Source of the DNA: Pseudonocardia sp.
GTDB lineage: Bacteria > Actinomycetota > Actinomycetes > Mycobacteriales > Pseudonocardiaceae
Length of the DNA: 64,000 nucleotides
Direction: 5' to 3'
NCBI GenBank assembly: GCA_016794615.1
Contig: JAEUJO010000140.1
Span: 14,638-78,637 of the forward strand
Positions within the stretch are counted from its first letter, which is position 1; each line of letters begins with the position of its first letter. Both the position numbers and the translations under genes were made by a program. The notes under the pieces are model-generated. The model ran no database searches. It saw only the letters and a list, made by a program, of their open reading frames with translations, and was not told the origin of the DNA. Of this stretch, positions 31,930 through 61,835 are shown one piece after another.

Positions 31930-32180
31930 CGGCCGGCATCCGGGCGGTCGAGGAACGCGACGTCGACGCCGTCGTCGGGCTCGTGCACGAGCTGGCCGAG
32001 TACGAACGCGCGGCCGAGCACTGCCTGCTCCGGGCAGAGCAGCTCCGCTCGGCGCTGTTCGGGCCGGTGCCCGCGCTGTTCGGGCACATCGCGGAGCTCG
32101 ACGGCCGGGTCGTCGGCTGCGCGCTCTGGTTCCTGAACTTCTCGACCTGGCGCGGGGTGCACGGGCTCTATGTAAACTAG
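31926..32180 (+). pseudogene. 5' part of a GNAT acetyltransferase (SSAT/Rv3216-like) interrupted by the prophage
   Basis: GTGA overlap with the phosphatase gene. IRAVEERDV..ELAEYE..LWFLNFSTWRGVHGLY is followed by prophage-derived VN-stop. Confidence 0.92.
32153..32171. other. attL core
   Basis: CGGGGTGCACGGGCTCTAT; 15 bp (32157-32171) identical to 61821-61835, 18/19 identical overall. Confidence 0.92.
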
Positions 32181-32185
32181 CAGAC

Positions 32186-32488
32186 GTGCTCGCTGCCATC
32201 TACCAAGTGACCGTGCCCGTCTCCGCCGAGTACGTGCTCGCCTCCGCGGTCGACGTCGTTCCGCTCGCCGAAGACGAGGCCCGACGTCGGATCGCGGACG
32301 CCGCCGGCGAGCGGAACGCGGGCGCGGCCACGATGGCATGGGAGGTCGAAGTCTGGACCGGCGAGCCCGGCGAGCGGAAGCGCATCCCCTGGCAGACGTG
32401 GCAGCGCGGGGGGCTTGCACCGCCGGGCGCATGGATGTTCATCCTCACTGCCCGGACGTCGATCGTGACGAGCGCGGAGCCGGCGTGA
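32186..32488 (+). CDS. Hypothetical protein coupled to the integrase
   Basis: GTG start 5 nt after the GNAT-fragment stop; its TGA overlaps the integrase GTG (GTGA). Confidence 0.55.
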   Translation: MLAAIYQVTVPVSAEYVLASAVDVVPLAEDEARRRIADAAGERNAGAATMAWEVEVWTGEPGERKRIPWQTWQRGGLAPPGAWMFILTARTSIVTSAEPA

Positions 32489-33891
32489 ACGCGGCTATCT
32501 ACCTGCGGATCAGTCAGGACCGCAGCGGCGAGGAGCTTGGCGTCACCCGGCAACGGGCGGACTGCGAGGCGCTCGTCGCCCGCCGCGGCTGGACGGTCCA
32601 CGACGTCTACATCGACAACGACGTCAGCGCGACGAAGGCCAAGCGGCGGCCCGAGTGGGAACGCATGATGGCCGACATCGAGGCCGGCCGCGCGCAGGTC
32701 GTCGTCGGCTGGACGATCGACCGCACACTCCGGTCGGGTCGCGACCGGCTGCGGATGCTCGAGGTTGGTAAGGAGCACGGCATCACGATCTCGCTCGTCC
32801 GCGGCAGCGACATGGACCTGAGCACGCCGGCCGGCCGGCTCGCCGCGGACATCCTCGGCGCCGTCGCGCTCAATGAGGTGGAGACCAAGGCCGACCGACA
32901 GAGGGCGATGCACGCTCAGGCCGCCCGGATGGGCAAGCGCGTGGGCGGCCGCCGGCCGTTCGGGTTCGAGCAGGACGGCGTGACGGTGCGCGCGCCCGAG
33001 GCGGCCGCGCTCACCGCGGCCTACCACGACTACCTCGCCGGAACCCCGCTGCTCGCAATCGCCCGACGCTGGAATGAGGCGGGCCTGCTGTCCGGCGTAC
33101 CCCGCGCGGACGGCGAGGGCATGGCCGAGTGGAACCACTCGGGCGTGCGGTCCGTGTTGCAGAACCCGCGATACATGGGGATGCGGCGTCACCGACCCGA
33201 GGGCGGGGAGGCCACGCTGCACCCGGCGGGCTGGCCCGCGCTCGTACCGGAGCACACCTGGCGCGCCGCGAACGCCCTGCTGGACTCGGCGGCGTCGGAG
33301 TTCAAGCCGCGCGGCGGCCGGCGCCTGCTGACCGGGGTGGCCCGGTGCGGCGTGTGCGGCACCCCGCTGAACGCCGCGAGGAACAAGGCCGGGCCGGGCG
33401 CCGTGGCGGCGTACCGCTGCCCCAACGGCGCGCACGTCGTCCGCCGCGCCGAGCTGCTGGACGAACAGATCACGCGGCTGGTCCTCGCGCGGCTGGCGCA
33501 GCCGGACGTGGTCGCGTTTCTCGCGGCCGCCGAGGACGACGGCGAACACGCGCGGCTGGCCGCCGAGGCCGCATCGCTGCGAGAACAGATGGACGAGATC
33601 GCCCACGCCGTCGCCAGCGGCGGGCTCACCGTCCGCCAGGCGCAGATTGCGAACGCCGGCCTGGCGAGTCGACTCACTGCCGCGGAGTCGGCAATGGCCC
33701 GGGCCGGCCGCGGGTCGGTGCTGTACGACCTGACGTCCAGTCAGATGACCCGGGAGCGATGGGACGCGCTCGGCGTGGATCAGCAGCGGGTCGTGATCGG
33801 CGCCCTGCTGACTGTCCGGGTGCATCCCGCCGGGCGCGGTGTGCGGCGGCCCGCACCGGAGACGGTTGAGGTGGCGTGGAGGGCGGCCTAA
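32485..33891 (+). CDS. Large serine recombinase (integrase)
   Basis: AAIYLRIS with catalytic Ser, YIDNDVSA, RPEWERMM, GRRPFGF recombinase domain, zinc ribbon CGVCG..YRC and coiled coil; adjacent to attL. Confidence 0.95.
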   Translation: MNAAIYLRISQDRSGEELGVTRQRADCEALVARRGWTVHDVYIDNDVSATKAKRRPEWERMMADIEAGRAQVVVGWTIDRTLRSGRDRLRMLEVGKEHGITISLVRGSDMDLSTPAGRLAADILGAVALNEVETKADRQRAMHAQAARMGKRVGGRRPFGFEQDGVTVRAPEAAALTAAYHDYLAGTPLLAIARRWNEAGLLSGVPRADGEGMAEWNHSGVRSVLQNPRYMGMRRHRPEGGEATLHPAGWPALVPEHTWRAANALLDSAASEFKPRGGRRLLTGVARCGVCGTPLNAARNKAGPGAVAAYRCPNGAHVVRRAELLDEQITRLVLARLAQPDVVAFLAAAEDDGEHARLAAEAASLREQMDEIAHAVASGGLTVRQAQIANAGLASRLTAAESAMARAGRGSVLYDLTSSQMTRERWDALGVDQQRVVIGALLTVRVHPAGRGVRRPAPETVEVAWRAA

Positions 33892-33903
33892 CCGGAGCCC
33901 GGA

Positions 33904-33941
33904 TTCTGGCCCACGATAAGGTCCATTAGCGAAACCCAGGA
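33904..33941. promoter_or_regulatory. Candidate lox/res-like crossover site for the tyrosine recombinase
   Basis: TTCTGGCCCACGATAA-GGTCCA-TTAGCGAAACCCAGGA: imperfect 16-bp arms (10/16) around a 6-bp asymmetric spacer, directly before the ATG. Confidence 0.5.
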
Positions 33942-35023
33942 TGGCCCTCGACCAGGGGAGGCAGGCCGTGCAGATCGGCGCCGAACTGACCACCATCGAG
34001 TCCGGCGAGCTGGTGCCCGCCGGCCCGCTGCGGCCCTCGGCGGACCTCACGCTGTCCCCGGCGGCCGCGCAGCGCATCCGCGACTCGGTGGCGGTGAACA
34101 CCGGCCGGGCCTACGCGCGCGTGTGGGATGGCCGCCCGCGGCCGGACGCCGAGCCGCCGAGCCCGCCCGGTGGGTTCCTCGGCTGGTGCCTCACCCACAG
34201 CCGCACCCCGATGCCGGCCACGCCCGAGACGCTGGCCGAGTACGTGAGCCACCTCTGCGATGAGGGCAAGAGCCCGGCGACCATCGAGCAGGCCCTGGCC
34301 GCCATCCGCACCGTGCACCACGCCGCCGGGTGCGAGCGGCCCGAGGCCGATCAGGCGCTGCGCGTCCTGCGCACCCACCGGCGCGAGCGCGCAGACGCCG
34401 GACTGTCGGCCCAGCGGCAGGCCGTCCCGGTCGTGGTGGAGAACCTGCGCAAGATGGTGGACACGCTGGACCGCAGCAAGCCCATCGGCCTGCGGGACCA
34501 CGCGCTACTCCTGCTCGGCATCGTGTCGTTCGGCCGCCGGTCCGAGGTGGTGAGCTACACCTGGGAGGACGTCAGCAAGGTGCCCGAGGGCCTGGTGCTG
34601 CGGCTGCGCAAGTCCAAGACCGACCAGGACGCCCGCGGCGCCACCATCCCGGTGCTGTATGGCGCCTTCCCTGGCACGGACCCGGTGCGCGTGCTCGCCC
34701 GGTGGCGCGAGCTGTGCGAGCGGCGCGGCATCACCTCGGGGCCCATCCTGCGCTCGGTGGACCGCCACGGGCGCATCGGCGGCAGCCTGTCTCCGCAGGC
34801 CGTCAACGTCGCCGTGCAGCGCATCGCCGAGCGCGCCGGGTTGGGCTCGGGCTACACCGCCCACAGCCTGCGCGCCGGCGCGGCCACCATCGCCTACAAG
34901 AACGGCGCGCCGATCTCGAAGATATGCGAGCTGGGCCGGTGGAAGCAGGGCAGCCCGGTGGTGCTGCGGTACATCCGCGCCGTGGATCAGTGGACCGATC
35001 ACCCGTTCCAGGGCGTGCTCTAG
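33941..35023 (+). CDS. Cre-like tyrosine recombinase (probable resolvase)
   Basis: N-terminal SAM-like domain (PATPETLAEYVSHL); catalytic R (FGRRSE), K (RKSKTDQ), HSLR, W (LGRW) and Y (LRY). Confidence 0.92.
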   Translation: MALDQGRQAVQIGAELTTIESGELVPAGPLRPSADLTLSPAAAQRIRDSVAVNTGRAYARVWDGRPRPDAEPPSPPGGFLGWCLTHSRTPMPATPETLAEYVSHLCDEGKSPATIEQALAAIRTVHHAAGCERPEADQALRVLRTHRRERADAGLSAQRQAVPVVVENLRKMVDTLDRSKPIGLRDHALLLLGIVSFGRRSEVVSYTWEDVSKVPEGLVLRLRKSKTDQDARGATIPVLYGAFPGTDPVRVLARWRELCERRGITSGPILRSVDRHGRIGGSLSPQAVNVAVQRIAERAGLGSGYTAHSLRAGAATIAYKNGAPISKICELGRWKQGSPVVLRYIRAVDQWTDHPFQGVL

Positions 35024-35076: not shown

Positions 35077-35271
35077 ATGAACGACACCACCAAGCGCGAC
35101 GGGCGGGTGATCCACCCGCGCCTCCCCGATGAGCTGCACGCGCGGCTGGCCGCCTTCGCCTCGCGCACCCACCGCAGCCTGAACGGCGCCACCGTCGCCC
35201 TGCTGGAGCGCGCCCTGACCAGCGCCGAGCAGCCCGGCCGCCCGGGCGAGCCTGACCTGCACCTCCGCTGA
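35077..35271 (+). CDS. Arc-family ribbon-helix-helix DNA-binding protein
   Basis: IHPRLPDELHARLAAFASRTHRSLNGATVALLERAL fits the Arc pattern. Confidence 0.8.
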   Translation: MNDTTKRDGRVIHPRLPDELHARLAAFASRTHRSLNGATVALLERALTSAEQPGRPGEPDLHLR

Positions 35272-35285
35272 AGGGACCACCCGCC

Positions 35286-35543
35286 ATGACGTTCATCAAC
35301 CGAGTCCGCGCCCTGCTCCGCGACGACGCCGAGCTGCGCCAGCTCCGCGGCGACCTCGCCGAGATCGGCGCCCGGCTGGCCCGGCTGGAGGCCGACGCCG
35401 AGCGCGCGGCCCTGCTGCGTGAGGCCACCGAGCGCGCCGGGCTCACCGAGGACCAGCGCCGGTCCGCGGTCCGCGACGCCGAGCAGGTGGCCGAGGCCGA
35501 GCGGGCCGCACTCCTCCGCGGCGAGGACATCGGCCACCCCTGA
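35286..35543 (+). CDS. Small coiled-coil hypothetical protein
   Basis: 85 aa with an AAGGG SD and heptad pattern. Confidence 0.65.
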   Translation: MTFINRVRALLRDDAELRQLRGDLAEIGARLARLEADAERAALLREATERAGLTEDQRRSAVRDAEQVAEAERAALLRGEDIGHP

Positions 35544-35554
35544 CCCGCACTCCT

Positions 35555-35586
35555 CCGCGCGGGGCTGCACCACCAGCCCCGCGCGG
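35555..35586. terminator. 13-bp stem hairpin between accessory genes
   Basis: CCGCGCGGGGCTG-CACCAC-CAGCCCCGCGCGG; no U-tract. Confidence 0.4.
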
Positions 35587-35625
35587 GGCCCGACCCGACA
35601 CCAACCCCACTAGGAGGGGCCCGTC

Positions 35626-35769
35626 ATGCACCGCGCACCATCCACCCTGACCCGGCTGCGCAGCCGAGCAGCCGACGTCATCGGGACCGAGGGATTCCTG
35701 GCCGTCGCGCTCTGCGGCGTCATCCTCGCCATCGGCGCCGCCTCGGTCCACGCCTGGGGCCTGCTGTGA
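35626..35769 (+). CDS. 47-aa membrane peptide (absent from the ORF track)
   Basis: AGGAGG SD; MHRAPSTLTRLRSRAADVIGTEGFLAVALCGVILAIGAASVHAWGLL; GTGA overlap with the next gene. Confidence 0.65.
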   Translation: MHRAPSTLTRLRSRAADVIGTEGFLAVALCGVILAIGAASVHAWGLL

Positions 35770-35954
35770 GCGCCGGCCGCCACCGGCCCCGCCGAGGGCG
35801 CCCGGTCCTGCGGGACCTGCTCCTGGGCCTGGTCGTCGTCGTAGTCGCGGCCGCCGTGGCCGCCGTGGTCCTCGGCCTGCTGTTCCCCTCCCGCCCGCTC
35901 GCCACCATCGGCTCACTCCAGCCGGTGGTCATCACCGAAAGGTCCGCCCGATGA
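35766..35954 (+). CDS. Small single-TM membrane protein
   Basis: Basic N-terminus plus a long hydrophobic stretch; overlaps neighbours at both ends. Confidence 0.65.
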   Translation: MSAGRHRPRRGRPVLRDLLLGLVVVVVAAAVAAVVLGLLFPSRPLATIGSLQPVVITERSAR

Positions 35955-36187
35955 CCGAGCCCGTCCCCACTGAACTGGCCGCCGAGGTCGATGAGGCCCT
36001 GGCCGGCGTCGTCACGCCGTCCGAGGACGACTACGCCACCGCGGCGTTCCTGCTGGCCGCGCTCGCCGAGGGCCAGGGCGAGTGCGCCGAGCAGGCCACG
36101 GGGCGGCACCCGACGCCGGCGGGGCTGGCGCTCGCCGTGGCGCTCGTCGCGGCCGTCGAGCTGCGAGCCGCGGGAGTGACGCTGTGA
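35951..36187 (+). CDS. Hypothetical protein
   Basis: ATGA coupling, acidic N-terminal half and hydrophobic C-terminus. Confidence 0.6.
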   Translation: MTEPVPTELAAEVDEALAGVVTPSEDDYATAAFLLAALAEGQGECAEQATGRHPTPAGLALAVALVAAVELRAAGVTL

Positions 36188-36209: not shown

Positions 36210-36244
36210 GAAACCCGCCACCCGATCATCGGGTGGCGGGTTTC
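36210..36244. terminator. Bidirectional terminator between convergent accessory and tail operons
   Basis: 17-bp perfect arms GAAACCCGCCACCCGAT / ATCGGGTGGCGGGTTTC. Confidence 0.75.
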
Positions 36245-36249: not shown

Positions 36250-36585
36250 CTACCGGGCCGGTTCGGGGGGTGCCGGTCTATCCACCACCGGCGATGAGGC
36301 CGGCAGCGGCGATCCTGGGCCGCTCTGAGCTGGCCGCTGCCGCCCCTGCACCGGGCGGGCGGGTATCGGGCGGGCGTTCCGCACCGCGGCCGGTGGCCGG
36401 CGCACGGTCTCCACGATCTCGGCGGCCACCACCGTGTAGGCGCGGCCCTCGGTGGTGGCGAGGCCGGCCAGCAGGGCGTCCACTGCCTCATCGGCGTCCA
36501 GGCCCTCCACCTCCAGCCGCACCGAGCCGGTGAGCGTGGTCCGCCCATCGAGCCACGTCAGCCGGACCTCGGCCGCTGCGCTCAT
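36250..36585 (-). CDS. Hypothetical protein, last gene of the tail operon
   Basis: ATGA overlap with 36582..37169. Confidence 0.55.
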   Translation of the reverse strand: MSAAAEVRLTWLDGRTTLTGSVRLEVEGLDADEAVDALLAGLATTEGRAYTVVAAEIVETVRRPPAAVRNARPIPARPVQGRQRPAQSGPGSPLPASSPVVDRPAPPEPAR

Positions 36586-37169
36586 GAGTGAATCCAGGCG
36601 ATGTGGAGCCGGGTCTGCCCGTTGCTGCCCTCGATGTTGATAGAGCCGCCGGTGGACTGCCAGAGGTTGCAGGTGAGCACCGCGCCCGCGCTGAAGTGCC
36701 GCACCAGCGCCACGTTGAGCTGGGCAAAGCCGTTGCCGGTGTAGCTGTTGGCCGCCACCTCACCCACCGCGTCGTTGATGGAGCCGTGGCGCTCCCCGTT
36801 CGCCGAGCTGGTGCGCAGCGACAGCGTGACCGACCACAGCCCTGAGCGGTTCAGGGTGAACTTGTGCCCGGCGCCGTCGGCGGCCCGGGTGACCAGCGGC
36901 GTGGAGGTGGACTCGTTGCCGAACGCCACCCGCGTGCCGCTGGCGTTGGCCGCGGACTGCGTGCCGGACTGGTTGTACTCGCCGTGAGTGCTGACCGCGC
37001 CGGTGGGCGCCAGGTAGCGCCACGCCGAGCCCGAGTAGATGGCCGTCATGCCAGTGTCGGACTCCACGATCAGCAGGCCCTCATGCGGGCCGGCCGGCCG
37101 GGTGGTCGATGTGCACGGCACCGGGCCGAGCTGCGACGCCCGCAGCTTCTGACCTGCGGTGTATCCCAC
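36582..37169 (-). CDS. Minor tail / tail-fibre-like protein
   Basis: MGYTAGQKLRASQL N-terminus typical of actinophage minor tail genes; beta-rich C1q-like C-terminus; position after the large tail protein. Confidence 0.7.
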   Translation of the reverse strand: MGYTAGQKLRASQLGPVPCTSTTRPAGPHEGLLIVESDTGMTAIYSGSAWRYLAPTGAVSTHGEYNQSGTQSAANASGTRVAFGNESTSTPLVTRAADGAGHKFTLNRSGLWSVTLSLRTSSANGERHGSINDAVGEVAANSYTGNGFAQLNVALVRHFSAGAVLTCNLWQSTGGSINIEGSNGQTRLHIAWIHS

Positions 37170-37179
37170 GGTCTCCTCC

Positions 37180-43461: not shown

Positions 43462-43465
43462 CGTG

Positions 43466-43946: not shown

Positions 43947-43982
43947 GACAGGTGCTCCCCTTGTTCGTTGCGGGTGGTTGGG

Positions 43983-44390: not shown

Positions 44391-44391
44391 G

Positions 44392-51337: not shown

Positions 51338-51543
51338 GGGTGGTCCAGCTCGACGCCGGGGTCATCGGTCAGCTTCACGCCCGTGGGTGGCGTGGTGGCC
51401 TGTCGGACCGCGGAACCTACGGGCTCGCCACCGAACTTGGGCACCGGGACCGCCGGCGGGAACAGCAGGAACGCCAGCCCGGCCGCCAGGAACGTCCCGA
51501 ACGTCACCCACGCGACCAGCGCGGCGAACTCCCGGCCGCTCAC
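51334..51543 (-). CDS. Small single-TM protein
   Basis: Hydrophobic N-terminus; GTGA overlaps at both ends. Confidence 0.65.
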   Translation of the reverse strand: MSGREFAALVAWVTFGTFLAAGLAFLLFPPAVPVPKFGGEPVGSAVRQATTPPTGVKLTDDPGVELDHP

Positions 51544-53398: not shown

Positions 53399-53563
53399 GT
53401 CCTGACCAGCTGTGTTACGGGTGTTACGGGGTCTCCAGTTCCTCTGGTGAACTATGCGCACGCGCAGGCATGTGGCCGAGCGCGCGTAGTAGCTACTTGC
53501 AACAGAGGTATACACACGGGGAACGGGGAACCCCGTAACACCCGTAACACAGCTGGTCAGGAC
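53399..53563. repeat. 33-bp perfect inverted repeat with internal iterons, candidate replication origin
   Basis: GTCCTGACCAGCTGTGTTACGGGTGTTACGGGG (53399-53431) and its exact reverse complement (53531-53563), just downstream of the helicase gene. Confidence 0.8.
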
Positions 53564-55471: not shown

Positions 55472-56784
55472 CAGGCGGCGCTCGCATTCGCGTTCAGGAT
55501 GGCGCCCAGCGCCAGCTTCAGGGTGGTCTTGGGGGAGCTGGCGTCCATGACGCCGTGGTGGCGGTGGCCGTCGATGAGGGCGCGCACGGCGGCCTCGGCC
55601 GGGTAGTGGCCGGCGATGGACTCGCTGATCAGGTGCCAGGCGTGGTGGTGGAGCAGGTCCGCGGGGTCGGCCTTCATCCAGGTCACGCGCCGCCCGAGCC
55701 GGGCGGGGTCGGTGTAGCGGGTGAACGTGGCCAGGTACGTCTCCACGTCCGCGTCGTCGGCGGGCGGCACCTGCGGCATCGGCTGCGCCGTGGCGCCCTG
55801 CGGGCCCCGGTAGCTGCCGCCCTGGAAGAACCCGCGGGGCTCGGCGGGCTTGACCGGCTTCTGCTGCGCGATGGTGGCGCAGGCCCGCAGCAGGCTGGTG
55901 GCCTCACCAGCCGGACGCCCGGCGGTGGCCAGGTAGCCGGTGAAGCGGTCCCACAGCAGATCGAGCAGCACGCGGACGCCGGTGTGGCCCTCGCGCCCGA
56001 GCATGAGCGCGTGCACGGCGGCGTCCTTGAACTCGTCGTGGCCGACGTGCTGAGCGGGTGCCGCCCACCGGTTCATAACGTGGCGGACCAGGCCGTCCGG
56101 CTCGCCCTCGGGGAAGCTGGCGACCAGGGCGCGCAGGTCCACCGTGTCCACGCTCTTGTCCACGTTGCCCGCCGTGCCGCGCAGCGCGGCGAACCACTCG
56201 GCGGGCAGCTCGGGGAACACCTCGGCGCGCGGGTAGCGGGTGGTGCGCTCGCCCCACGTGGGCGGCACGCCGGGCTCGCCCGGGAGGTACCAGGCGTACT
56301 CGGCGCCGGTGTCGGGGTGCACCGAGGGTGCGCACACCGTGTAGCGGTGGTGCCAGCAGCACAGCTCCACCGACTTGCACGGCTTGGTCTTCAGCCGCAC
56401 GTCCTCGGGGATGCGGTAGACGTACTGCCGCGACGGGCTGTCGTCGCCCCGCGCCGTGCTGGACCAGGTGGCGGGCAGCGGCGGCAGGCCGCGCTCGGCG
56501 GCGAACGCGGCGAGCTGGGCCACCCCGTCCTTGTCGCCGTAGCCGTGGTCCACGTCGATGGCGAGCGTGAGCTGGTGGCGCAGCCCGATGTTGTCCATGC
56601 GGTGCCCGCGCCCTGCCTTGGCGCGCTTCACCGGGTCCGAGTCCAGCCAGGCTGCCACCTTGGCCGGCGTCACGGTGCCGTCGTAGCCGGTCGCGCCGCC
56701 GACGGGCCGGCTCTTGCCCTCCACGGGGATCGGCCACAGGTGGCCCATCTCGTAGATTTCGGCGGCGTCGTCGTAGGCGCCCAT
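55471..56784 (-). CDS. Bifunctional DNA primase/polymerase (Prim-Pol)
   Basis: WPIPVEGKSRP, NIGLR, AIDVD, LPATWSST and YTVCAPSVHP; TGATG-coupled to the helicase gene. Confidence 0.85.
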   Translation of the reverse strand: MGAYDDAAEIYEMGHLWPIPVEGKSRPVGGATGYDGTVTPAKVAAWLDSDPVKRAKAGRGHRMDNIGLRHQLTLAIDVDHGYGDKDGVAQLAAFAAERGLPPLPATWSSTARGDDSPSRQYVYRIPEDVRLKTKPCKSVELCCWHHRYTVCAPSVHPDTGAEYAWYLPGEPGVPPTWGERTTRYPRAEVFPELPAEWFAALRGTAGNVDKSVDTVDLRALVASFPEGEPDGLVRHVMNRWAAPAQHVGHDEFKDAAVHALMLGREGHTGVRVLLDLLWDRFTGYLATAGRPAGEATSLLRACATIAQQKPVKPAEPRGFFQGGSYRGPQGATAQPMPQVPPADDADVETYLATFTRYTDPARLGRRVTWMKADPADLLHHHAWHLISESIAGHYPAEAAVRALIDGHRHHGVMDASSPKTTLKLALGAILNANASAA

Positions 56785-57125
56785 CACGCGGCCCACCGGA
56801 GGAGGTCCCGGTCCCAGCCCAGCGTCATCGCGGCGTAGACGGGCTCGCCGTCGATGTGGTGGCCGAGTGCGGCCGCGGCCTCGGCGAACGCCGTGGCGTA
56901 CTGCCAGCCGATGAACCACTGCCGGCCCAGGCTCCACCACTCGCGGCGGTCCGCCGGGACGATGGCCTTCAGCAGCTTGGTCAGCTCCCAGTCGTAGGGG
57001 AAGCTGACGGCCACGTGGCCGTCGGGCCGGCGGCGCAGGGTCACGGTCTTGCAGCCGCGGGGGTGGCCTGCGGCGTTGCCGCGGGTAGACTGGTGTGCAG
57101 TCACAGGGGTCTCTCCTGTGGTCAC
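56784..57125 (-). CDS. Hypothetical protein (HARP-like small domain)
   Basis: VAVSFPYDWELTKLLKAIVP..REW..RQW; coupled to Prim-Pol. Start uncertain. Confidence 0.65.
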   Translation of the reverse strand: MTTGETPVTAHQSTRGNAAGHPRGCKTVTLRRRPDGHVAVSFPYDWELTKLLKAIVPADRREWWSLGRQWFIGWQYATAFAEAAAALGHHIDGEPVYAAMTLGWDRDLLRWAA

Positions 57126-57207: not shown

Positions 57208-57381
57208 TCAGGCGGCGTCCGTGAGCGCGCTGCCTGCTGCGCTGGCGGGGTCGTGCGGGGTGCGGGTCTGTCCGTAGGTGCGGCGGATGAGGCCGAGCTG
57301 GGCGACGGACAGCGGCCAGGGCTCGGCCATCTGCTCGGCCACCCACTGGTCGATGGCCTCGGCGTCCTGCTGCGTGATCAC
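57208..57381 (-). CDS. Small hypothetical protein
   Basis: VITQQDAEAIDQWVAEQMAEPWPLSVAQLGLIRR; GTGA overlap with the upstream HTH gene. Confidence 0.6.
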   Translation of the reverse strand: MITQQDAEAIDQWVAEQMAEPWPLSVAQLGLIRRTYGQTRTPHDPASAAGSALTDAA

Positions 57382-57593
57382 GCCGCGGCTGCCTTGGCGT
57401 CGATCCACGCGCGGACGTCGCTGAGCCGGTACCGCACGTACTTGCCCAGCCGGATGGCGCGCGGCCCGGTGCCCTCGGCGGTCCACTTGCGCACGCTGCG
57501 GGCGGGGATGCCGCCGAGCAGGGCGCACAGCTCGGACTGCGTCAGGAGCCGGTCCTGGTCCTCGCCGGGTGCGATCGGGGCGATCGTCTCCAT
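57378..57593 (-). CDS. AlpA/excisionase-like HTH protein (Cro/Xis/RDF candidate)
   Basis: LLTQSELCALLGGIPARSVRKW..GTGPRAIRLGKYVRYRLSDVRAWI; divergent from the repressor; GGAGGA SD. Confidence 0.88.
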   Translation of the reverse strand: METIAPIAPGEDQDRLLTQSELCALLGGIPARSVRKWTAEGTGPRAIRLGKYVRYRLSDVRAWIDAKAAAA

Positions 57594-57683
57594 CGGGTCC
57601 TCCTGTCGGGTGTCATCGGCCGTTAGCGGCCAACGCGGACGACAGTAGCACGATCATCCGCTAGCAGACTCCATTAGAGCACG

Positions 57684-57760
57684 ACACTTAGTGTGTTCTA
57701 GAACACGGCAGTTCCCAGGCAACCCGGCGGGTCTTGTGGCTGTTGTCGGCCACTAGTGGC
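57684..57760. promoter_or_regulatory. Palindromic operators in the divergent repressor/Cro switch
   Basis: ACAC-TTA-GTGT (57684-57694), perfect GTGTTCTAGAACAC (57693-57706) and perfect GCCACTAGTGGC (57749-57760). Confidence 0.65.
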
Positions 57761-57772
57761 ACCATTCGCGCC

Positions 57773-58267
57773 ATGAGCGAGGGGACCGGCCCAACGGCCG
57801 ACGACTGGAAGCGCCTGGGTAAGGCCATCGAGGACCGACGGTTTGAGCGCGGCCTGTCGCAGGAACAGCTCGTGAAGCGTGGCGGCCCGAGCCACCAGAC
57901 CGTCCGCAACATCGAGCGCGGCCTGGTGGCCGACTACCGGCCCACCACGTTCCGCAAGCTGGACCGCGCGCTGGACTGGCTGGACGGCACCAGCGAGAAA
58001 ATCCTGCGCGGCACCGCCACCGAGGACGACATTGCCGGCGTGTGGGTGCGGGCCGGCTCGGGCGATGAGCGCGTACAGATCACCCCCGACGGCCGGCCGC
58101 TGGGGCGCGTGGTCGATGCCGGCCCGATCCCTGGCGCCGAACTTGCAGACGACGTGCGCGCGCTCATGCAACGGCTGGCGACCGAGCCATGGGTGCCGGG
58201 CACCAGCGAGGCTGTCATTGCGCTGGTCCGGCTGCTCGGCGAGCTGGAGGGCAGCGAGCGCGGATAG
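57773..58267 (+). CDS. XRE-family repressor (immunity repressor candidate)
   Basis: LGKAIEDRRFERGLSQEQLVKRGGPSHQTVRNIERG..TFRKLDRALDW; no SD, probably leaderless. Confidence 0.88.
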   Translation: MSEGTGPTADDWKRLGKAIEDRRFERGLSQEQLVKRGGPSHQTVRNIERGLVADYRPTTFRKLDRALDWLDGTSEKILRGTATEDDIAGVWVRAGSGDERVQITPDGRPLGRVVDAGPIPGAELADDVRALMQRLATEPWVPGTSEAVIALVRLLGELEGSERG

Positions 58268-58291: not shown

Positions 58292-58478
58292 AGGGAGGCA
58301 GACGGGGAGGCTCCCCGGCGCGCGAAAACGGGGCCCGCAGAGGTGATCTGCGGGCCCCGCATTTTGCCTCCCCAGCCTCCCCGCCGCAGGTCAGCGTGTG
58401 GAGGGAGGCTGGGGAGGCGCTGGGGAACCCTCCCCAGCCGGGGGCCTGCCTCCCCGGCTGCCTCCCCGCTGCCTCCCC
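58292..58478. repeat. Cluster of GGGGAGGC/GCCTCCCC 8-mers, clt-like locus
   Basis: Seven perfect copies (58304, 58366, 58375, 58411, 58448, 58460, 58471) and three 7/8 copies (58292, 58402, 58428), ending 4 nt from the traB stop. Confidence 0.85.
58325..58365. terminator. Bidirectional intrinsic terminator between repressor and traB
   Basis: AAAA-CGGGGCCCGCAGA-GGTGA-TCTGCGGGCCCCG-CA-TTTT. Confidence 0.8.
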
Positions 58479-58482: not shown

Positions 58483-60762
58483 TCAGGCGGCCGTGTCGCG
58501 CCGCCGGAACGCCGCGTCCACGTCCTCGGCGAGCACGTACATCCGACCGCCGGACAGCTTGCGCGGCTCCACGCCCTCGGCCCGCAGCCGGGCGCTGAGC
58601 GCCTTGGCGTCGAACGTCGCGGCGCCGTACTCGGCCGGGCTCTCCTGCGCGAGCAGCTTCAGCAGCGTGGTGGTGGTGACCCGGTCCTCGCCGTCCATCA
58701 CCTCGGCGACGTCGGCCAGGAAGTCCACCACCGTGGCGTCCTCGGCCGCCGCGCCGCCGCCGTTCGGGTCCACCGGGCCGCCGCGCAGCTCGATGGCCCG
58801 CCGCGCCACGTCGGTGGCCGCGTCCCCGTCGATGTAGTGCGTGCGGACGATGACCGACGACTGGCCCGGCTCCAGCTCGAAACCCTCGCCATTGAGCACC
58901 AGCACGCCCTTGTCGATGCCCGGCCGCAGCTTGTGCGGCGCGCCGCCACCGTCCACGGCCTTGGCGCCGATGGCCATCCGCGCCTGCTCCTCGGTGCCGA
59001 TGGGCAGGCAACCGCGGATGTGCGCGGCCTCGCGGATCAGCTTGGGCAGGTTCTCGTTCGTCGGGTCCTGCGTGCCCAGCCACAGCGTGACGTTGACCGC
59101 GCGACCCTGGTTGAGAATCTTGCGGGCGGCGTTGAAGAACCGGCTGGTGGCCTTGGTGCCGCCATACGGGCGCTTGTCCAGGCCGATGACCGGGCACATG
59201 AACGCCACCTGCGCCTCGTCCACGATGGCGGCCAGCGGGTGGAACCCGCTGCCCTTGCGTCGGGCCAGGTCGCGCGTCACGCCGTTGGGGAACTCCTCCT
59301 TGTCCAGGGCGCCCAGCCGGCGCTCCATCTCGGCCACCACGCCCTCCAGCATCTCGGTGGCCGCCACCACGTGCTCGTCCGCCGGGCCCTCGATCAGCAC
59401 CGTGGTCAGGCCGCCGAACATGTGCCAGTCGCCGATGCCCTTCAGGTCGGCCACGCGCAGCTCGGTGACCTTGTCCAGCGCCCACCACAGCGCGAGCGCG
59501 CGCAGCGCGGCGGTCTTGCCCTGGTTGGACAGGCCGGTGAGCAGGATGTGCCGCTGGTGCAGGCTGAGCGCGCCGAGGTCGCCGCGCATCGTCTGGCCCC
59601 ACGGCACCCGGCCGCCGTAGGTGTCGGCCTTCAGCGTCTCGTCCAGGACCAGGGGCGACGGCGGCAGCGGCTTGTCCAGCTCGCCCGGGTCGGCGGCCCA
59701 GAACCGGATGGTCCGAGGCGCCGGGACGGACATGAACAGCTCGTGCTCGTGGCGCTCCACGTTCTCGGCGGCCTTCCGGCGCCGCTTCATGATCTCCTCG
59801 GTGGACACGCCCGACGGCAGCCGCGCGTCCCACTCGGTCCCGCACCCGGCCACGCGGATCGGCGAGAGCATCCCGCCGGCCGTGTCGGTGGCCATCATGA
59901 CCTCGATGGCCTTCCGCAGCGGCGCAATGCCCAGGTCGCGCAGCATCAGCACGGCCTTGTGGGGGGTGATGTCGGCGCCGAGCGCGGCGGCCTGTGCCTT
60001 GGTCAGCAGGAACTTGGGCGCGTTCACGGCCCGGTCGCCCTCGCGCCACGACCAGATCAGCAGGATCGGCAGCGCGGCCCAGGCGCCGAGGATGGCGGCC
60101 CACTGCACGGCCCAGGCGATGCACTGGATCACGTCGTTGACGAACGCCCACCAGGACAGGAAGTCCCAGTCCGGACACGTCGCCCGGACTGCCGGGTCGG
60201 GGTCGCCGCACTCGGGCGAGGTATTCGGGGTGAGCTGCGCGGCGAGCGAGATCAGCAGATTCACGATCAGGAGCACGGCGACGATCAGGCCGAGCACGGC
60301 GCCGGCCATCAGCACCTGCTTGGGCAACGAGAGCAGGTGTGCCCGCCGGTCCGCCTTGGCCTTGGTCAGCGAGTCCAGCGCCCGGGTGGCGGCGTCGTGC
60401 TGCCCGGTCTGGTGCAGCGCGGCGATCGTGGTCTTGTGGGTCTTGTAGGTGAGCGCGCCCATGAAGCGGACCGCCCACGACTTCCACCCGGCGCCGATGG
60501 TCCACAGGACCCGGGCGAGCGCGCGGCCCCAGTCGTCCAGCGCGTGGCCGGTCTTGGCCATCGGCGCGGAGTGCACGACTGTGCCGACGATGTGGGCGGC
60601 CTGCTGCGTGCGCGTGCGCCGCGGCTCGATGTCGGCCCGGTCGGTCGGACGGACGACTACGGCGCGGGTGCGCGCCGGCGCGCGGGTGCCGAGCTTGCGC
60701 CGGATGATGCCCGGCCCGTGCTCGGCGTCCAGCTTTTCGGTGTCGCGGATCAGGTCGTCCAT
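58483..60762 (-). CDS. traB: TraB-type FtsK/SpoIIIE conjugative DNA translocase
   Basis: N-terminal TM pair, Walker A TGLSNQGKT, DLKG, Walker B IVDEAQ, LGTQDP and C-terminal winged helix (FLADVAEVMDGEDRVTTTTLL); next to an spd-like gene and 8-mer repeats. Confidence 0.88.
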   Translation of the reverse strand: MDDLIRDTEKLDAEHGPGIIRRKLGTRAPARTRAVVVRPTDRADIEPRRTRTQQAAHIVGTVVHSAPMAKTGHALDDWGRALARVLWTIGAGWKSWAVRFMGALTYKTHKTTIAALHQTGQHDAATRALDSLTKAKADRRAHLLSLPKQVLMAGAVLGLIVAVLLIVNLLISLAAQLTPNTSPECGDPDPAVRATCPDWDFLSWWAFVNDVIQCIAWAVQWAAILGAWAALPILLIWSWREGDRAVNAPKFLLTKAQAAALGADITPHKAVLMLRDLGIAPLRKAIEVMMATDTAGGMLSPIRVAGCGTEWDARLPSGVSTEEIMKRRRKAAENVERHEHELFMSVPAPRTIRFWAADPGELDKPLPPSPLVLDETLKADTYGGRVPWGQTMRGDLGALSLHQRHILLTGLSNQGKTAALRALALWWALDKVTELRVADLKGIGDWHMFGGLTTVLIEGPADEHVVAATEMLEGVVAEMERRLGALDKEEFPNGVTRDLARRKGSGFHPLAAIVDEAQVAFMCPVIGLDKRPYGGTKATSRFFNAARKILNQGRAVNVTLWLGTQDPTNENLPKLIREAAHIRGCLPIGTEEQARMAIGAKAVDGGGAPHKLRPGIDKGVLVLNGEGFELEPGQSSVIVRTHYIDGDAATDVARRAIELRGGPVDPNGGGAAAEDATVVDFLADVAEVMDGEDRVTTTTLLKLLAQESPAEYGAATFDAKALSARLRAEGVEPRKLSGGRMYVLAEDVDAAFRRRDTAA

Positions 60763-60764
60763 GG

Positions 60765-61448
60765 TCACGCCTCCTGCGGGGTGGTGGCGGTGTGGCGGTG
60801 GGTGGCGATGAGCTGCTTTGCGCGGTGCTCGGTCAGCCCGAGCTTCACGAGTGACCGGCGGCCGGCGCCCTCGTGGATGGCGGCGATGGCGCGCGTCTCC
60901 ACGTCTCCCACCTCGGCATCCACGGGTGGTGTGGCGACGGCGCGGAGTGGCGTGGCGGCCGGGGTGGCGGCCTCCACCACGGCCTCCACGGCCGGGGTGG
61001 CGGGGTGTGGCGACGTGCGGACCAGCAGCACCACCAGGTGCACCGTCGCGCCCACCACGGCGGGCGGGATGGCGCCGACCGCCACGGCCACCCACCACGG
61101 CGGGGTGACCTCGTGGGCGTGCATCCCGAGCTGCCCGGCGTTGCCGACCACGGTCACGGCGAGCAGCGCCCACGTCATCCGTCCGGCGAACCGGGCGGCG
61201 TCGGGGGTGGTTCGTCCGCCGAGCCAGGTGGCGCAGGAGACGGCGGCGCCGGCGTCGACTGCGACGGGGAGGAGCCAGGCGAACCGGGCGGGGATGCTGA
61301 CCGCGAGGGCCAGGGCGCGGAGCGCGTCGAACGAGAGGACCGCCGCGGCGGCCAGGACCACGGCAAGGCCGAGCCAGACGACCCACGGCGGGCGTGGTGC
61401 CGACCCCGGCGGAACAGGCTGCGAAGCCATGGGATCACCGAGGCTCAC
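60765..61448 (-). CDS. DUF2637/SpdA-like membrane protein
   Basis: Four TM helices, LSFDAL..AWLLPVAVDAG..VVGNA..AVGAIPP, C-terminal HTH-like tail. Start 61448 or 61430. Confidence 0.82.
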   Translation of the reverse strand: MSLGDPMASQPVPPGSAPRPPWVVWLGLAVVLAAAAVLSFDALRALALAVSIPARFAWLLPVAVDAGAAVSCATWLGGRTTPDAARFAGRMTWALLAVTVVGNAGQLGMHAHEVTPPWWVAVAVGAIPPAVVGATVHLVVLLVRTSPHPATPAVEAVVEAATPAATPLRAVATPPVDAEVGDVETRAIAAIHEGAGRRSLVKLGLTEHRAKQLIATHRHTATTPQEA

Positions 61449-61696
61449 CGCAGCACGTCCCAGTCGTCACCGTGGACGACCTGGATCAGCGCGCCCGGGT
61501 AGCGGGCCTGCCAGTCCGCCCACACCTCGGCGGCTGCGGTCATCTGGTCCTTGCCGGCGTAGTCCACCACCTTGACGGTGAGAACCGGGATGGCGCTGGA
61601 GCCGGGCACGACGTTGCGCCCGGTGCCCACGATGAACTCGGCGCGCGGCGGGCGCCGGTCTACGGCCGCGCGGGTGGGTGGGGCATGATCCGACAC
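61445..61696 (-). CDS. Hypothetical protein, first gene of the transfer operon
   Basis: AGGAGG SD; TGA overlaps the spd-like GTG. Confidence 0.65.
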   Translation of the reverse strand: MSDHAPPTRAAVDRRPPRAEFIVGTGRNVVPGSSAIPVLTVKVVDYAGKDQMTAAAEVWADWQARYPGALIQVVHGDDWDVLR

Positions 61697-61816
61697 GGGC
61701 CGGACCTCCTGTCCTAGTCAGGGGTGCGGTCAAGGGCCGGCGTGGAAGTGGTGTTCCGCGTCCGGCCCGCCTTCAGTTGTGGGCCAGCCCCTGCTCGACA
61801 TCTACGAGTTGGCTAA

Positions 61817-61835
61817 CGGCGTGCACGGGCTCTAT
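61817..61835. other. attR core
   Basis: CGGCGTGCACGGGCTCTAT; 15 bp identical to attL. Confidence 0.92.

What the first reader, a model, noticed from the sequence alone, without database searches (positions are those of the whole stretch)
32157..61835. Integrated siphophage that also carries a Streptomyces-type conjugation system (phage/AICE hybrid)
Seen in the sequence: one att-bounded 29.7-kb unit holds an apparently uninterrupted head, tail, packaging and lysis set, plus an spd-like gene, traB, clt-like repeats, Prim-Pol/helicase, a serine integrase and a Cre-like recombinase. Established: TraB + Spd + Prim-Pol + integrase is the gene set of actinomycete integrative conjugative elements, which move circular dsDNA between hyphae and normally lack virion genes. 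Inference: the element may alternate among integrated prophage, conjugative circle and lytic virion states. The nearest precedent I recall is the much larger Streptomyces plasmid-phage pZL12, described as a free plasmid; I know of no described compact integrative version in Pseudonocardiaceae, but cannot search.
Basis: partly seen in the sequence, partly recalled or inferred. Interest (0 to 1): 0.92.

Follow-up and report, generated by a model that had tools for sequence, protein, structure and literature searches.

The report
Integrated phage carrying conjugation DNA pump
A 29.7-kb virus genome integrated in a soil-type actinomycete chromosome also carries the DNA pump, its docking site and a membrane partner that actinomycete plasmids use to move between hyphae, so it may spread both as virus particles and by mating; such hybrids are known as free plasmids, but not as integrated prophages.

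Summary
An exact 15-bp direct repeat (32157-32171, 61821-61835) splits a GNAT gene. A same-genus genome has the two flanks contiguous with one core copy, so the 29.65 kb is a single insertion. Inside are a serine integrase, a Cre-like recombinase, an apparently intact HK97-type siphophage set, an endolysin, a Prim-Pol plus D5-type helicase, and a divergent HTH switch. At the right end lies a DUF2637 - traB - clt cassette.

TraB is 52% identical to the TraB of a classic 13.5-kb Streptomyces AICE. It has an FtsK/TcpA-type motor fold, N-terminal membrane helices and a C-terminal winged helix. Seven GGGGAGGC repeats follow its stop codon, and related 8-mers sit in that place in most of 94 homologous loci.

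The phage-plus-TraB combination recurs in circular replicons with related or unrelated virion modules. It is absent from three other head-module relatives.

This is a genuine hybrid: an integrative relative of the Streptomyces plasmid-phages pZL12 and pFP4. Excision, virion production and transfer are inferred only. No holin was identified. I rate it a new variant of a known kind, of moderate to high interest.

The parts
32157..32171 (.). attL core (15-bp direct repeat GTGCACGGGCTCTAT)
   Evidence: Exact repeat with only two copies in the window. It is present as a single copy at the empty site of relative G023.
61821..61835 (.). attR core
   Evidence: The inferred attP has imperfect inverted arms (10 of 13 bases) around the core, read.
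31926..32171 (+). N-terminal half of the split host GNAT acetyltransferase gene (attB target)
   Evidence: Translating the joined flanks gives an intact GNAT, co-linear with the uninterrupted G023 gene.
61836..62072 (+). C-terminal half of the split GNAT gene
   Evidence: Pfam Acetyltransf_1 profile positions 56-115 only. Joined ORF.
32338..33891 (+). Large serine integrase (longest ORF; the true start is probably later, near 32480)
   Evidence: Resolvase + Recombinase + Zn_ribbon_recom. phrog_95 integrase, E 2.7e-90. It lies about 170 bp from attL.
33941..35023 (+). Cre-like tyrosine recombinase (probable monomeriser or cycliser of the circular form)
   Evidence: PF00589. All 17 PDB sequence hits are Cre or Tre, over residues 79-352, E about 1e-15.
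35077..36187 (+). Small plus-strand genes: a ribbon-helix-helix protein (35077-35271, conserved next to ParA in relative G001), a coiled-coil protein, two small membrane proteins and one acidic protein
   Evidence: GC3 gene calling. Weak FitA-like RHH and partition-family PHROG hits. G001 homologue at 56% identity.
36210..36244 (.). 17-bp perfect palindrome between the convergent gene blocks (probable bidirectional terminator)
36250..40335 (-). Distal tail genes: 111-aa, 195-aa (putative receptor-binding) and 1051-aa minor tail protein
   Evidence: phrog_5313, E 3e-115, and a weak PKD domain. Homologues in G001, G007, L028 and L032.
40340..42730 (-). Tape measure protein (796 aa)
   Evidence: phrog_305 and phrog_58 tape measure, E 7e-81.
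42734..45416 (-). Minor tail protein, Neck1/tail completion, chaperone-like protein, major tail protein (43983-44390), tail terminator (44392-44802) and head-tail adaptor (44796-45416)
   Evidence: PHROGs. G001 homologues at 45-64% identity.
45432..49028 (-). Head module: HK97-type major capsid (45432-46751), S78 prohead protease (46946-47545), 80-aa ORF, portal (47781-49028)
   Evidence: Pfam. TIGR01554. phrog_2263.
48988..51935 (-). Packaging module: Cys-rich HNH-like protein, large terminase (49844-51337), 69-aa membrane ORF, small terminase (51540-51935)
   Evidence: phrog_9 TerL, E 2e-72. Terminase_6. HNH PHROGs. TerL is 40% identical to Arthrobacter phage TerL.
52137..53203 (-). Small HNH endonuclease-like ORF (52137-52430) and N-acetylmuramoyl-L-alanine amidase endolysin (52436-53203)
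   Evidence: Amidase_2, E 1e-19. phrog_880 endolysin. The HNH call rests on reading the motif in the translation.
53399..53563 (.). Inverted pairs of the 9-bp repeat GTGTTACGG between the replication and late genes (candidate origin or late-operon control site)
   Evidence: Function not tested.
53621..56787 (-). Replication module: D5_N/DUF5906 P4-type primase-helicase (53621-55471) and Prim-Pol (55471-56787)
   Evidence: Pfam. TIGR01613. phrog_1156 covers both ORFs. The same split pair occurs in G001.
57378..58267 (.). Divergent switch: HTH_17 (Xis/Cro-like, minus strand, 57378-57593) and HTH_3 repressor-like (plus strand, 57734-58267)
   Evidence: Pfam. PHROGs excisionase/regulator and repressor families.
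58292..58478 (.). clt-like site: 7 exact GGGGAGGC plus degenerate copies, direct and inverted, around a 13-bp-stem bidirectional terminator (58329-58359)
   Evidence: Related 8-mers (xGGGAGGC) occur 4-7 times at the same place in most of 94 TraB loci.
58483..60762 (-). traB: membrane-anchored FtsK/SpoIIIE-type dsDNA translocase (759 aa)
   Evidence: 52% identical to the TraB of an AICE plasmid. phrog_1358. FtsK and TcpA motor folds, E about 1e-12 to 1e-13. C-terminal winged helix. It keeps all invariant residues of 19 homologues.
60765..61448 (-). DUF2637 membrane protein (Spd-like by position)
   Evidence: PF10935. A DUF2637 ORF lies directly upstream of the TraB-like gene in G007, G001, G073 and pPaSha2 and in 32 of 94 TraB loci.
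61445..61696 (-). First gene of the transfer operon (83 aa, no family)
   Evidence: GC3 calling. No PHROG or PADLOC hit.

Best explanation
This is one mobile element. It is a temperate HK97-type siphophage that inserted, most likely through its large serine integrase, into a GNAT gene at a 15-bp core. Its lysogeny and early region is built like an actinomycete integrative conjugative element (AICE).

Shown:
- The element is a single insertion.
- All virion, replication and transfer genes are full-length.
- TraB belongs to the AICE/plasmid TraB clade and keeps its motor motifs, membrane anchor and C-terminal winged helix.
- A cluster of the clade's 8-bp recognition-type repeats lies in cis, immediately after traB.
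- The DUF2637 - traB - clt cassette forms its own operon at the right end, ending at a terminator shared with the convergent repressor gene.

Inferred mechanism:
1. The integrase, possibly helped by the HTH_17 protein, excises a 29.65-kb circle.
2. Prim-Pol and the D5-type helicase replicate the circle, and the Cre-like recombinase keeps it monomeric.
3. From there the circle has two exits. If the repressor is lost, the late operon packages it (HNH/terminase) into siphovirus particles and the amidase lyses the cell. Alternatively, TraB hexamers bind the GGGGAGGC repeats and pump the double-stranded circle through hyphal contacts and septa, helped by the DUF2637 protein, and the integrase re-inserts it at attB.

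The element is an integrative, compact counterpart of the Streptomyces plasmid-phages pZL12 and pFP4.
For: - Single insertion: two att copies only. An empty site is present in same-genus genome G023, and the joined GNAT gene is intact.
- Gene content.
- TraB identity: 52% to the TraB of a 13.5-kb plasmid with the layout int-xis-DUF3631-PrimPol-TraB-spdB-GntR. FtsK and TcpA motor folds, E about 1e-12 to 1e-13. Winged-helix C-terminus. All invariant columns retained.
- clt: seven GGGGAGGC in 175 bp after the traB stop. The same or a one-base-variant 8-mer occurs 4-7 times at that place in about 70 of 94 homologous loci.
- Recurrence of phage + DUF2637 + TraB on single replicons:
  - G001: a 27.4-kb circularly permuted contig with MCP 72% and TerL 69% identical, plus ParA.
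  - G073: a prophage with a related head module and a serine integrase.
  - G007: a 49.8-kb contig with direct terminal repeats and a full virion set.
  - pPaSha2 of Pseudonocardia alni.
  - IMG/VR proviruses with traB 2-3 kb upstream of TerL.
- Phylogeny: phage-linked TraBs cluster on the TraB tree, with 4 label changes against 8.7 for shuffled labels.
Against: - Nothing functional was tested.
- No holin was identified.
- Pfam FtsK_SpoIIIE does not hit the window's TraB directly (AAA_22 only, below cut-off). The TraB also sits on a long branch, which could mean relaxed or altered function.
- The DUF2637 protein is not detectably related to an annotated SpdB.
- Three relatives of the head module (G120, G285, G210) have no TraB-like gene within 20 kb, so the cassette is exchangeable and not essential to this phage type.
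- No GntR/Kor-type transfer repressor is present.
- No deposited, cultured phage has a TraB homologue at E <= 1e-5.
Confidence: 0.6

Rival explanations
1. The hybrid is real, but one machinery is dead. Either the element is a defective prophage that now lives as an AICE, or it is a working phage whose tra cassette is a vestige.
For: - No holin was found.
- The window's TraB has a long branch and misses the Pfam FtsK model.
- The cassette is dispensable in relatives G120, G285 and G210.
- No cultured phage carries such a TraB.
Against: - No frameshift or stop interrupts any of about 30 genes, and strong GC3 coding signal runs throughout.
- Structural proteins align end to end with those of the circular relative G001.
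- TraB keeps every invariant residue of 19 homologues, and its clt repeats are intact.
Confidence: 0.2
2. TraB, DUF2637 and clt serve the phage inside one mycelium rather than mating. They move replicating phage genomes, or the excised prophage, across septal cross-walls into neighbouring compartments before lysis or lysogeny, and there is no transfer to other individuals.
For: - In Streptomyces plasmids the same proteins also drive intramycelial spread (established knowledge; TraB/Spd literature cited in PMC3583192).
- The cassette is a separate operon at the prophage end (gene map).
- Having clt in cis shows only that the element's own DNA is the substrate.
Against: In characterised systems, TraB plus clt suffices for inter-mycelial transfer (established knowledge). 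pZL12 and pFP4 do conjugate. Nothing in the sequence separates the two uses.
Confidence: 0.12
3. The FtsK-like ATPase and the DUF2637 protein are a prophage-expressed exclusion or defence module that acts on incoming DNA. They are not a transfer system.
For: - The position at the prophage end, outside the lytic operon, is typical of morons, and phrog_1358 is filed under 'moron/host takeover'.
- There is a weak PADLOC hit to mad8 (E 1e-5, P-loop region only).
- HerA/FtsK-type ATPases occur in defence systems (fold list).
Against: - The protein is 52% identical to the TraB of a textbook AICE.
- It has the clade's conserved recognition repeats in cis.
- The best fold matches are FtsK and a conjugative coupling protein, not HerA defence ATPases.
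- The PADLOC hit is marginal.
Confidence: 0.05
4. Two independent elements, an AICE and a prophage, sit side by side or nested by chance.
For: Most (86 of 94) loci with TraB of this clade show no detectable virion genes within 10 kb, so the cassette normally lives in plain AICEs.
Against: - There are only two att copies and no internal junction.
- The relative's empty site shows one 29.65-kb insertion.
- Both recombinases are at the end opposite traB.
- There is only one replication module.
- The same combination occurs on circular replicons G001, G007 and pPaSha2.
Confidence: 0.03

Closest known systems
Streptomyces plasmid-phages pZL12/phiZL12 (Zhong et al. 2010, J Bacteriol 192:3747) and pFP4 (Chen et al. 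2012, Plasmid 68:170)
   Same: One replicon carries tailed-phage virion genes together with a Streptomyces-type tra (FtsK-like) transfer function. These elements are reported to conjugate as episomes and also to give infective particles (as cited in PMC4170104 and PMC3583192).
   Different: - pZL12 and pFP4 are free plasmids. From memory, pZL12 is about 90 kb.
- This element is 29.7 kb and is chromosomally integrated by a serine integrase inside a protein-coding gene.
- It has no ParA and has an AICE-type Prim-Pol replication module.
- Its host is probably not a Streptomyces.
- Sequence relatedness to pZL12 and pFP4 was not tested. No close TraB match appeared outside the nine plasmid records.
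AICEs (pSAM2, SLP1 and pMEA300 type; operational definition of Ghinet et al. 2011, PMC3218068)
   Same: It is att-bounded, with a recombinase next to att, a Prim-Pol replication protein, a single FtsK/SpoIIIE-type Tra protein, a clt and an upstream membrane protein. TraB is 52% identical to that of a 13.5-kb AICE-type plasmid.
   Different: - It carries a full head, tail, packaging and endolysin set, and is larger than the AICEs named in the 2008 review (10.9-17.3 kb, abstract).
- It has no GntR/Kor regulator and no Nudix/Pif.
- It integrates in a GNAT gene rather than a tRNA gene.
TraB/clt of pSVH1 and related Streptomyces plasmids
   Same: The architecture matches: membrane anchor, FtsK-like motor and C-terminal winged helix, with a cluster of 8-bp repeats at the 3' end of traB.
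   Different: The repeat unit here is GGGGAGGC. From memory, the pSVH1 unit is GACCCGGA. Binding and pore formation were not tested.
Phage-plasmids such as P1
   Same: The Cre-like recombinase, and the closest relative G001 being a circular replicon with ParA, point to a phage-plasmid ancestry.
   Different: P1-type phage-plasmids have no conjugation function. [quoted passage not shown] The window's element is integrated.
Pseudonocardia alni plasmid pPaSha2 (CP052773, 41.9 kb)
   Same: It is a circular replicon annotated with capsid, protease, portal, terminase and holin genes, plus an adjacent DUF2637 - FtsK pair.
   Different: The TraB-like protein is only 29% identical, and the virion proteins 27-36%. 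It is a plasmid, not integrated. No paper describing it was found.

Membership tests
AICE (Ghinet et al. 2011 criteria) | Site-specific recombinase adjacent to one of two att sites | tested here: met
   A serine integrase lies about 170 bp from attL. The 15-bp att pair is exact, and a relative has the empty site.
AICE (Ghinet et al. 2011 criteria) | Replication protein of RepSA, RepAM or Prim-Pol type | tested here: met
   PF09250 Prim-Pol, E 3.9e-15, followed by a D5/P4-type helicase.
AICE (Ghinet et al. 2011 criteria) | Single FtsK/SpoIIIE-domain Tra protein | tested here: met
   PF01580 itself is not hit by the window protein. However, the protein is 52% identical to an AICE TraB that does hit PF01580. 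A profile of 20 homologues hits E. coli FtsK. Fold matches to FtsK and TcpA have E about 1e-12 to 1e-13.
AICE (Ghinet et al. 2011 criteria) | No virion genes; size about that of the named AICEs (10.9-17.3 kb in the 2008 review abstract) | tested here: not met
   The element is 29.65 kb and has TerS, TerL, portal, protease, major capsid, tail and endolysin genes.
AICE (Ghinet et al. 2011 criteria) | Excision and conjugative transfer | not testable with these tools
Streptomyces-type TraB/clt transfer system | N-terminal membrane anchor plus FtsK-like motor with Walker A and B | tested here: met
   Long hydrophobic helices at 122-177 and 201-245 in the model. GLSNQGKT and VDEAQ are invariant in the alignment. 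Motor fold.
Streptomyces-type TraB/clt transfer system | C-terminal winged-helix DNA-recognition domain | tested here: met
   A model of the last 93 residues has pLDDT 86.6. The top fold matches are mostly winged-helix DNA-binding proteins, but with weak E-values of 0.02-0.1.
Streptomyces-type TraB/clt transfer system | Cluster of 8-bp repeats (clt) at or after the 3' end of traB | tested here: met
   Seven GGGGAGGC in 175 bp, against about 0.02 expected from the window-wide density. The motif family is conserved at the same place in most of 94 homologous loci.
Streptomyces-type TraB/clt transfer system | Spd spreading protein(s) homologous to SpdB | tested here: not met
   BLASTP of the DUF2637 protein against an annotated SpdB gives E 0.04. 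DUF2637 is nevertheless a regular upstream neighbour of traB, in 32 of 94 loci.
Streptomyces-type TraB/clt transfer system | TraB binds clt and translocates dsDNA | not testable with these tools
   This needs EMSA and mating assays.
Temperate tailed phage (HK97-fold siphovirus) | Terminase, portal, protease and HK97-fold capsid | tested here: met
   Identity to circular relative G001 is 69-80%.
Temperate tailed phage (HK97-fold siphovirus) | Non-contractile tail set (major tail protein, tape measure, terminator, adaptor, distal tail protein) | tested here: met
   PHROGs. No sheath or baseplate wedge families were found.
Temperate tailed phage (HK97-fold siphovirus) | Lysis cassette (endolysin plus holin) | tested here: inconclusive
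   The endolysin is clear. No holin family was hit; only small membrane ORFs at 51334-51543 and 35626-35954 are candidates.
Temperate tailed phage (HK97-fold siphovirus) | Production of infective particles | not testable with these tools
   This needs induction and electron microscopy.
Plasmid-phage (pZL12/pFP4 kind) | Virion genes and a tra function on one replicon | tested here: met
   The unit is a single insertion carrying both gene sets.
Plasmid-phage (pZL12/pFP4 kind) | Maintained as a free plasmid with partition functions | tested here: not met
   The element is integrated in the chromosome and has no ParA. Relative G001 is circular and has ParA.
Plasmid-phage (pZL12/pFP4 kind) | Sequence homology to pZL12 or pFP4 genes | not tested
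   I did not retrieve these sequences. The pZL12 paper is not held.

The most novel reading that the evidence does not exclude
The element is a truly bimodal, chromosomally integrated prophage. The same 29.65-kb circle leaves the cell either in siphovirus particles or as double-stranded DNA pumped by its own TraB through its own clt into neighbouring hyphae. It would then represent a scattered but recurrent class of 'conjugative prophages' in mycelial actinomycetes. That would contradict the current general statement that no integrated prophage is conjugative (PMC12282955).
Probability: 0.4. Interest if true: 0.85.

Novelty: new variant of a known kind. Interest (0 to 1): 0.62.

Why it matters
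Phages and conjugative elements are usually treated as exclusive strategies. [quoted passage not shown] The Streptomyces plasmid-phages pZL12 and pFP4 show that the combination can work, but they are large free plasmids and are little known outside that field.

This element offers a compact, integrated case with clean ends. Every component needed for the minimal TraB system (pump, clt and membrane partner) sits beside a complete-looking virion module. The comparative data show the same cassette moving between AICEs and several unrelated phage lineages.

This makes several questions directly testable:
- whether a virus of a mycelial host uses cell-to-cell DNA pumping as a second, non-lytic route;
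- how the capsid size limit and conjugation constrain each other;
- how phage-plasmids, prophages and AICEs interconvert. Here ParA in relative G001 corresponds to a serine integrase in this element, with a Cre-like recombinase retained.

Tried and rejected
- **Exact look-up.** The portal protein is not on record, so this gave neither the host name nor identical copies.
- **Deposited phages.** tblastn of TraB and DUF2637 against 50,697 deposited phages found no match at E <= 1e-5. The cassette is therefore not a feature of cultured actinophages in that collection.
- **PADLOC.** Only marginal hits appeared (mad8 at 1e-5, capH at 5e-4), so a defence role is not supported.
- **Nonomuraea gerenzanensis.** I asked whether the TraB-like hit there lies in the published integrative plasmid-phage PhiNon1. 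It lies beside a tRNA-Ile gene and a tyrosine integrase with no detectable virion genes, so it is a plain AICE.
- **pZL12 paper.** PMC2897331 is not held, so its content is cited second-hand.
- **Third att copy.** The search found none. The only 3-mismatch hit is within chance expectation.
- **Virion genes in the 94 TraB loci.** Iterated HMM searches for TerL, portal, MCP, TMP and tail proteins found only 8 positive loci. This is a lower bound, because unrelated virion families would be missed.
- **Holin.** GC3 and frame analysis around the endolysin found no convincing candidate.
- **Host identity.** It is consistent with the best TraB hits (Lentzea, Amycolatopsis) and with pPaSha2.

Full report
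**Gene map.** The window is about 72% G+C, so raw ORF lists are useless. I called genes by third-position GC and annotated them with Pfam, PHROGs and NCBIfam.

Between 32157 and 61835 the plus strand carries:
- a large serine integrase (Resolvase + Recombinase + Zn ribbon; phrog_95, E 3e-90);
- a tyrosine recombinase whose only PDB relatives are Cre and Tre (E 1e-15 over residues 79-352);
- five small ORFs, the first a ribbon-helix-helix protein.

The remaining genes are on the minus strand, apart from the HTH_3 repressor-like gene (plus strand). Read in the direction of transcription, from 61696 down to 36250, the order is:
- an 83-aa ORF, a DUF2637 membrane protein and a 759-aa FtsK-like protein (traB);
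- the convergent HTH_3 repressor-like gene, then a divergent HTH_17 gene;
- a 113-aa ORF, Prim-Pol and a D5_N/DUF5906 P4-type primase-helicase;
- an amidase endolysin and a small HNH-like ORF;
- TerS, a 69-aa membrane ORF, TerL and a Cys-rich HNH-like protein;
- portal, an 80-aa ORF, S78 protease and HK97-type capsid;
- head-tail adaptor, tail terminator, major tail protein, a chaperone-like ORF, Neck1/tail completion and a minor tail protein;
- a 796-aa tape measure, a 1051-aa distal tail protein and two further tail-end ORFs.

No gene is interrupted. No tRNA gene is present in the window.

**The ends, and whether this is one element.** The only other hit, with three mismatches, is within chance expectation. 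The left copy closes the N-terminal half of a GNAT acetyltransferase gene, and the right copy opens its C-terminal half.

I searched 40 related genomes with the right flank and fetched the best match, a same-genus genome (G023). There the left flank (window 31292-32171, 92% identity) and the right flank (61817-64000, 95%) abut, with a single core copy and an uninterrupted GNAT ORF. The 29.65 kb is therefore a single insertion relative to a close relative. No trace of an internal junction exists.

The inferred attP has imperfect inverted arms around the core, as expected for a serine-integrase site (read). The tandem or nested two-element alternative is very unlikely.

**Whether traB is really a conjugation gene.** Pfam gives only a sub-threshold AAA_22 hit, so I tested this in several other ways.
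- tblastn against plasmids gives 52% identity over 68% of the protein to the FtsK/SpoIIIE protein of a 13.5-kb Streptomyces plasmid. That plasmid's annotation is the textbook AICE layout: integrase, HTH, DUF3631, Prim-Pol, TraB, spdB, GntR.
- Scans of public collections gave 94 loci encoding proteins 43-58% identical. These are mostly Streptomyces, Kitasatospora, Lentzea and Amycolatopsis chromosomes.
- In a 20-sequence alignment the window's protein keeps all 130-odd invariant residues, including GLSNQGKT (Walker A) and VDEAQ (Walker B).
- A profile of that alignment hits E. coli FtsK.
- An AlphaFold model (pLDDT 72.7) has two long N-terminal hydrophobic helices. Its best PDB fold matches are the pCW3 coupling protein TcpA and FtsK motor domains (E 5e-13 to 1e-10).
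- The last 93 residues, modelled separately (pLDDT 86.6), match winged-helix DNA-binding proteins, though with weak E-values.

**The clt site.** Directly after the traB stop codon, 58292-58478 holds seven exact GGGGAGGC copies plus degenerate ones. They are arranged as three tandem copies, a 16-bp perfect inverted pair and further copies, around a 13-bp-stem bidirectional terminator shared with the convergent repressor gene. The other 63.8 kb of the window has six copies.

The decisive control is comparative. In the 500 bp around the traB stop of the 94 homologous loci, the most frequent 8-mer is CAGGGAGG, AGGGAGGC, GGGGAGGC or their complement. It is present 4-7 times in roughly 70 loci. A recognition-type repeat that is conserved, with small variation, across a whole TraB clade at a fixed position is what a TraB recognition site should look like.

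**The DUF2637 gene.** The DUF2637 protein shows no significant similarity to the annotated SpdB of the AICE plasmid. 'Spd-like' is therefore true only by position and membrane character. A DUF2637 ORF does lie just upstream of traB in 32 of the 94 loci and in every phage-type relative described below. It is a regular member of this cassette.

**Whether the phage-TraB linkage is an accident.** No deposited phage has a TraB or DUF2637 homologue. Most TraB-clade loci (86 of 94) have no detectable virion gene within 10 kb. The cassette's usual home is therefore the plain AICE. The exceptions are informative.

- *G001, the closest relative of the virion module.* This IMG/VR contig of 27,393 bp has MCP 72%, protease 80% and TerL 69% identical. 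It is circularly permuted, because its portal gene is split across the contig ends. Its early region has the same split Prim-Pol/D5 pair and an HTH pair. It also has a ParA, a tyrosine recombinase, and a DUF2637 gene followed by a 746-aa FtsK_SpoIIIE protein (PF01580, E 2e-15). That protein is only 28% identical to the window's TraB.
- *G073, a family relative with a 51-55% identical capsid.* It has a serine integrase at one end and DUF2637 plus a TraB-like gene at the other.
- *G007, a 49.8-kb metagenomic viral contig.* It has 141-bp direct terminal repeats and carries TerL, portal, protease, adaptor, tail, tape measure, endolysin, integrase and RecT. It also carries TraB (51% identical) and DUF2637.
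- *Pseudonocardia alni plasmid pPaSha2.* It is annotated with capsid, protease, portal, terminase and holin genes, next to a DUF2637-FtsK pair.
- *Four IMG/VR contigs, three of them classed as proviruses.* They have traB 2-3 kb upstream of TerL on the same strand. Two Streptomyces loci have it beside tail genes.

On a TraB tree the phage-linked proteins fall into at least three groups and are more clustered than chance (4 label changes against 8.7 for shuffled labels, 0 of 500 shuffles as low).

Against this, three other head-module relatives (G120, G285, G210) have no TraB-like gene within 20 kb.

Taken together, the cassette is a mobile module that tailed temperate phages of high-GC actinomycetes have captured several times and sometimes kept. 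It is neither universal nor accidental.

**How the element most likely works.** Shown so far: one insertion, intact gene sets, an AICE-clade TraB with clt in cis, and a separate transfer operon that ends at a shared terminator next to a cI/Cro-like divergent switch.

The rest is inferred. Serine-integrase excision gives a 29.65-kb circle. Prim-Pol and the D5-type helicase replicate it, perhaps from the GTGTTACGG inverted iterons at 53399-53563. The Cre-like enzyme resolves multimers. The circle then either enters the late pathway (HNH/terminase packaging, siphovirus assembly, amidase lysis) or is pumped as double-stranded DNA by TraB, bound to the GGGGAGGC repeats, into a neighbouring hypha or compartment. 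It would then re-integrate at the GNAT attB.

Compared with G001, this element has a serine integrase where the relative has ParA. It retains the Cre-like recombinase and the RHH gene. This reads as a switch from plasmid-prophage to integrated prophage within one lineage.

**Comparison with what is known.** The gene set meets the operational AICE definition of Ghinet et al. (Int + Prim-Pol + FtsK/SpoIIIE Tra; PMC3218068), except that it carries virion genes and is larger than the classical AICEs. Neither that survey nor the 2008 AICE review mentions virion genes in AICEs.

The true precedent is the Streptomyces plasmid-phage. [quoted passage not shown] These are free plasmids.

[quoted passage not shown] An integrated, compact version outside Streptomyces is therefore a new variant of a known kind. 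It would interest the wider mobile-element field if function were shown.

Earlier notes of this scan describe the same pattern in at least seven other genomes. I treated them as leads only. They fit the recurrence I measured independently.

**Limits.**
- No holin was identified.
- The count of virion-linked TraB loci is a lower bound.
- The window's TraB has a long branch.
- The pZL12 and pFP4 sequences were not compared.

**Verdict.** The dual life cycle is plausible but unproven.

Noticed in passing
window 15930-20061: A second FtsK_SpoIIIE-family protein (935 aa, 16951-19758, minus strand; PF01580, E 2.5e-22) lies in the host flank. It is preceded by an 86-aa ORF and followed by two small ORFs, between 2-oxoglutarate dehydrogenase and a CN-hydrolase gene. 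It is unrelated to the element's TraB (not found at E 1e-5). It may be an SffA/SmeA-like or minimal EccC-like unit.
   Followed up: partly
window 53399-53563: Four copies of the 9-bp unit GTGTTACGG form two tandem pairs in inverted orientation, in the gap between the helicase gene and the endolysin/late genes. This is a candidate replication origin or late-operon control site.
   Followed up: partly
window 31173-31292 versus G023 locus L121 3939-9331: The same-genus relative has about 5.4 kb between blocks that are only about 120 bp apart in the window. This is a second indel about 1 kb to the left of attL, and its content was not examined.
   Followed up: no
window 61779-62072: At attR, element-borne sequence supplies a GTG start and 14 new codons in frame with the C-terminal GNAT half. 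A 97-aa truncated GNAT that retains the acetyl-CoA motif could be expressed in the lysogen. Excision would restore the full gene.
   Followed up: partly
window 51334-51543: A 69-aa single-pass membrane ORF is wedged between TerS and TerL. It has no counterpart in the close relative G001, where the gap is about 107 bp. It may be a moron or a displaced holin candidate.
   Followed up: no
window 43466-43946: The chaperone-like ORF (43620-43946) is followed by a gap, and then an ORF that PHROGs calls Neck1/tail completion (43039-43503). Another first-reader note proposes a +1 frameshift here. I did not test it.
   Followed up: no
G001 (loci L109 + L110), 27,393 bp: This IMG/VR contig is classed 'linear' but is circularly permuted: portal residues 10-112 and 114-394 lie at opposite ends. 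It encodes ParA, a tyrosine recombinase, DUF2637 and an FtsK-like protein beside a full virion set. It is a probable conjugation-equipped phage-plasmid in an isolate genome.
   Followed up: yes
G120:C328 (loci L122 + L131), 28,573 bp: This whole contig is about the size of the element. It carries a head module 53-67% identical to the window's, but no TraB-like gene. Whether it is circular was not checked.
   Followed up: partly
window 55471: The Prim-Pol and D5-helicase genes abut at 55471, and the same split occurs in G001. PHROG 1156 covers both as one 855-position family, so this lineage has a conserved split of a usually fused primase-helicase.
   Followed up: partly
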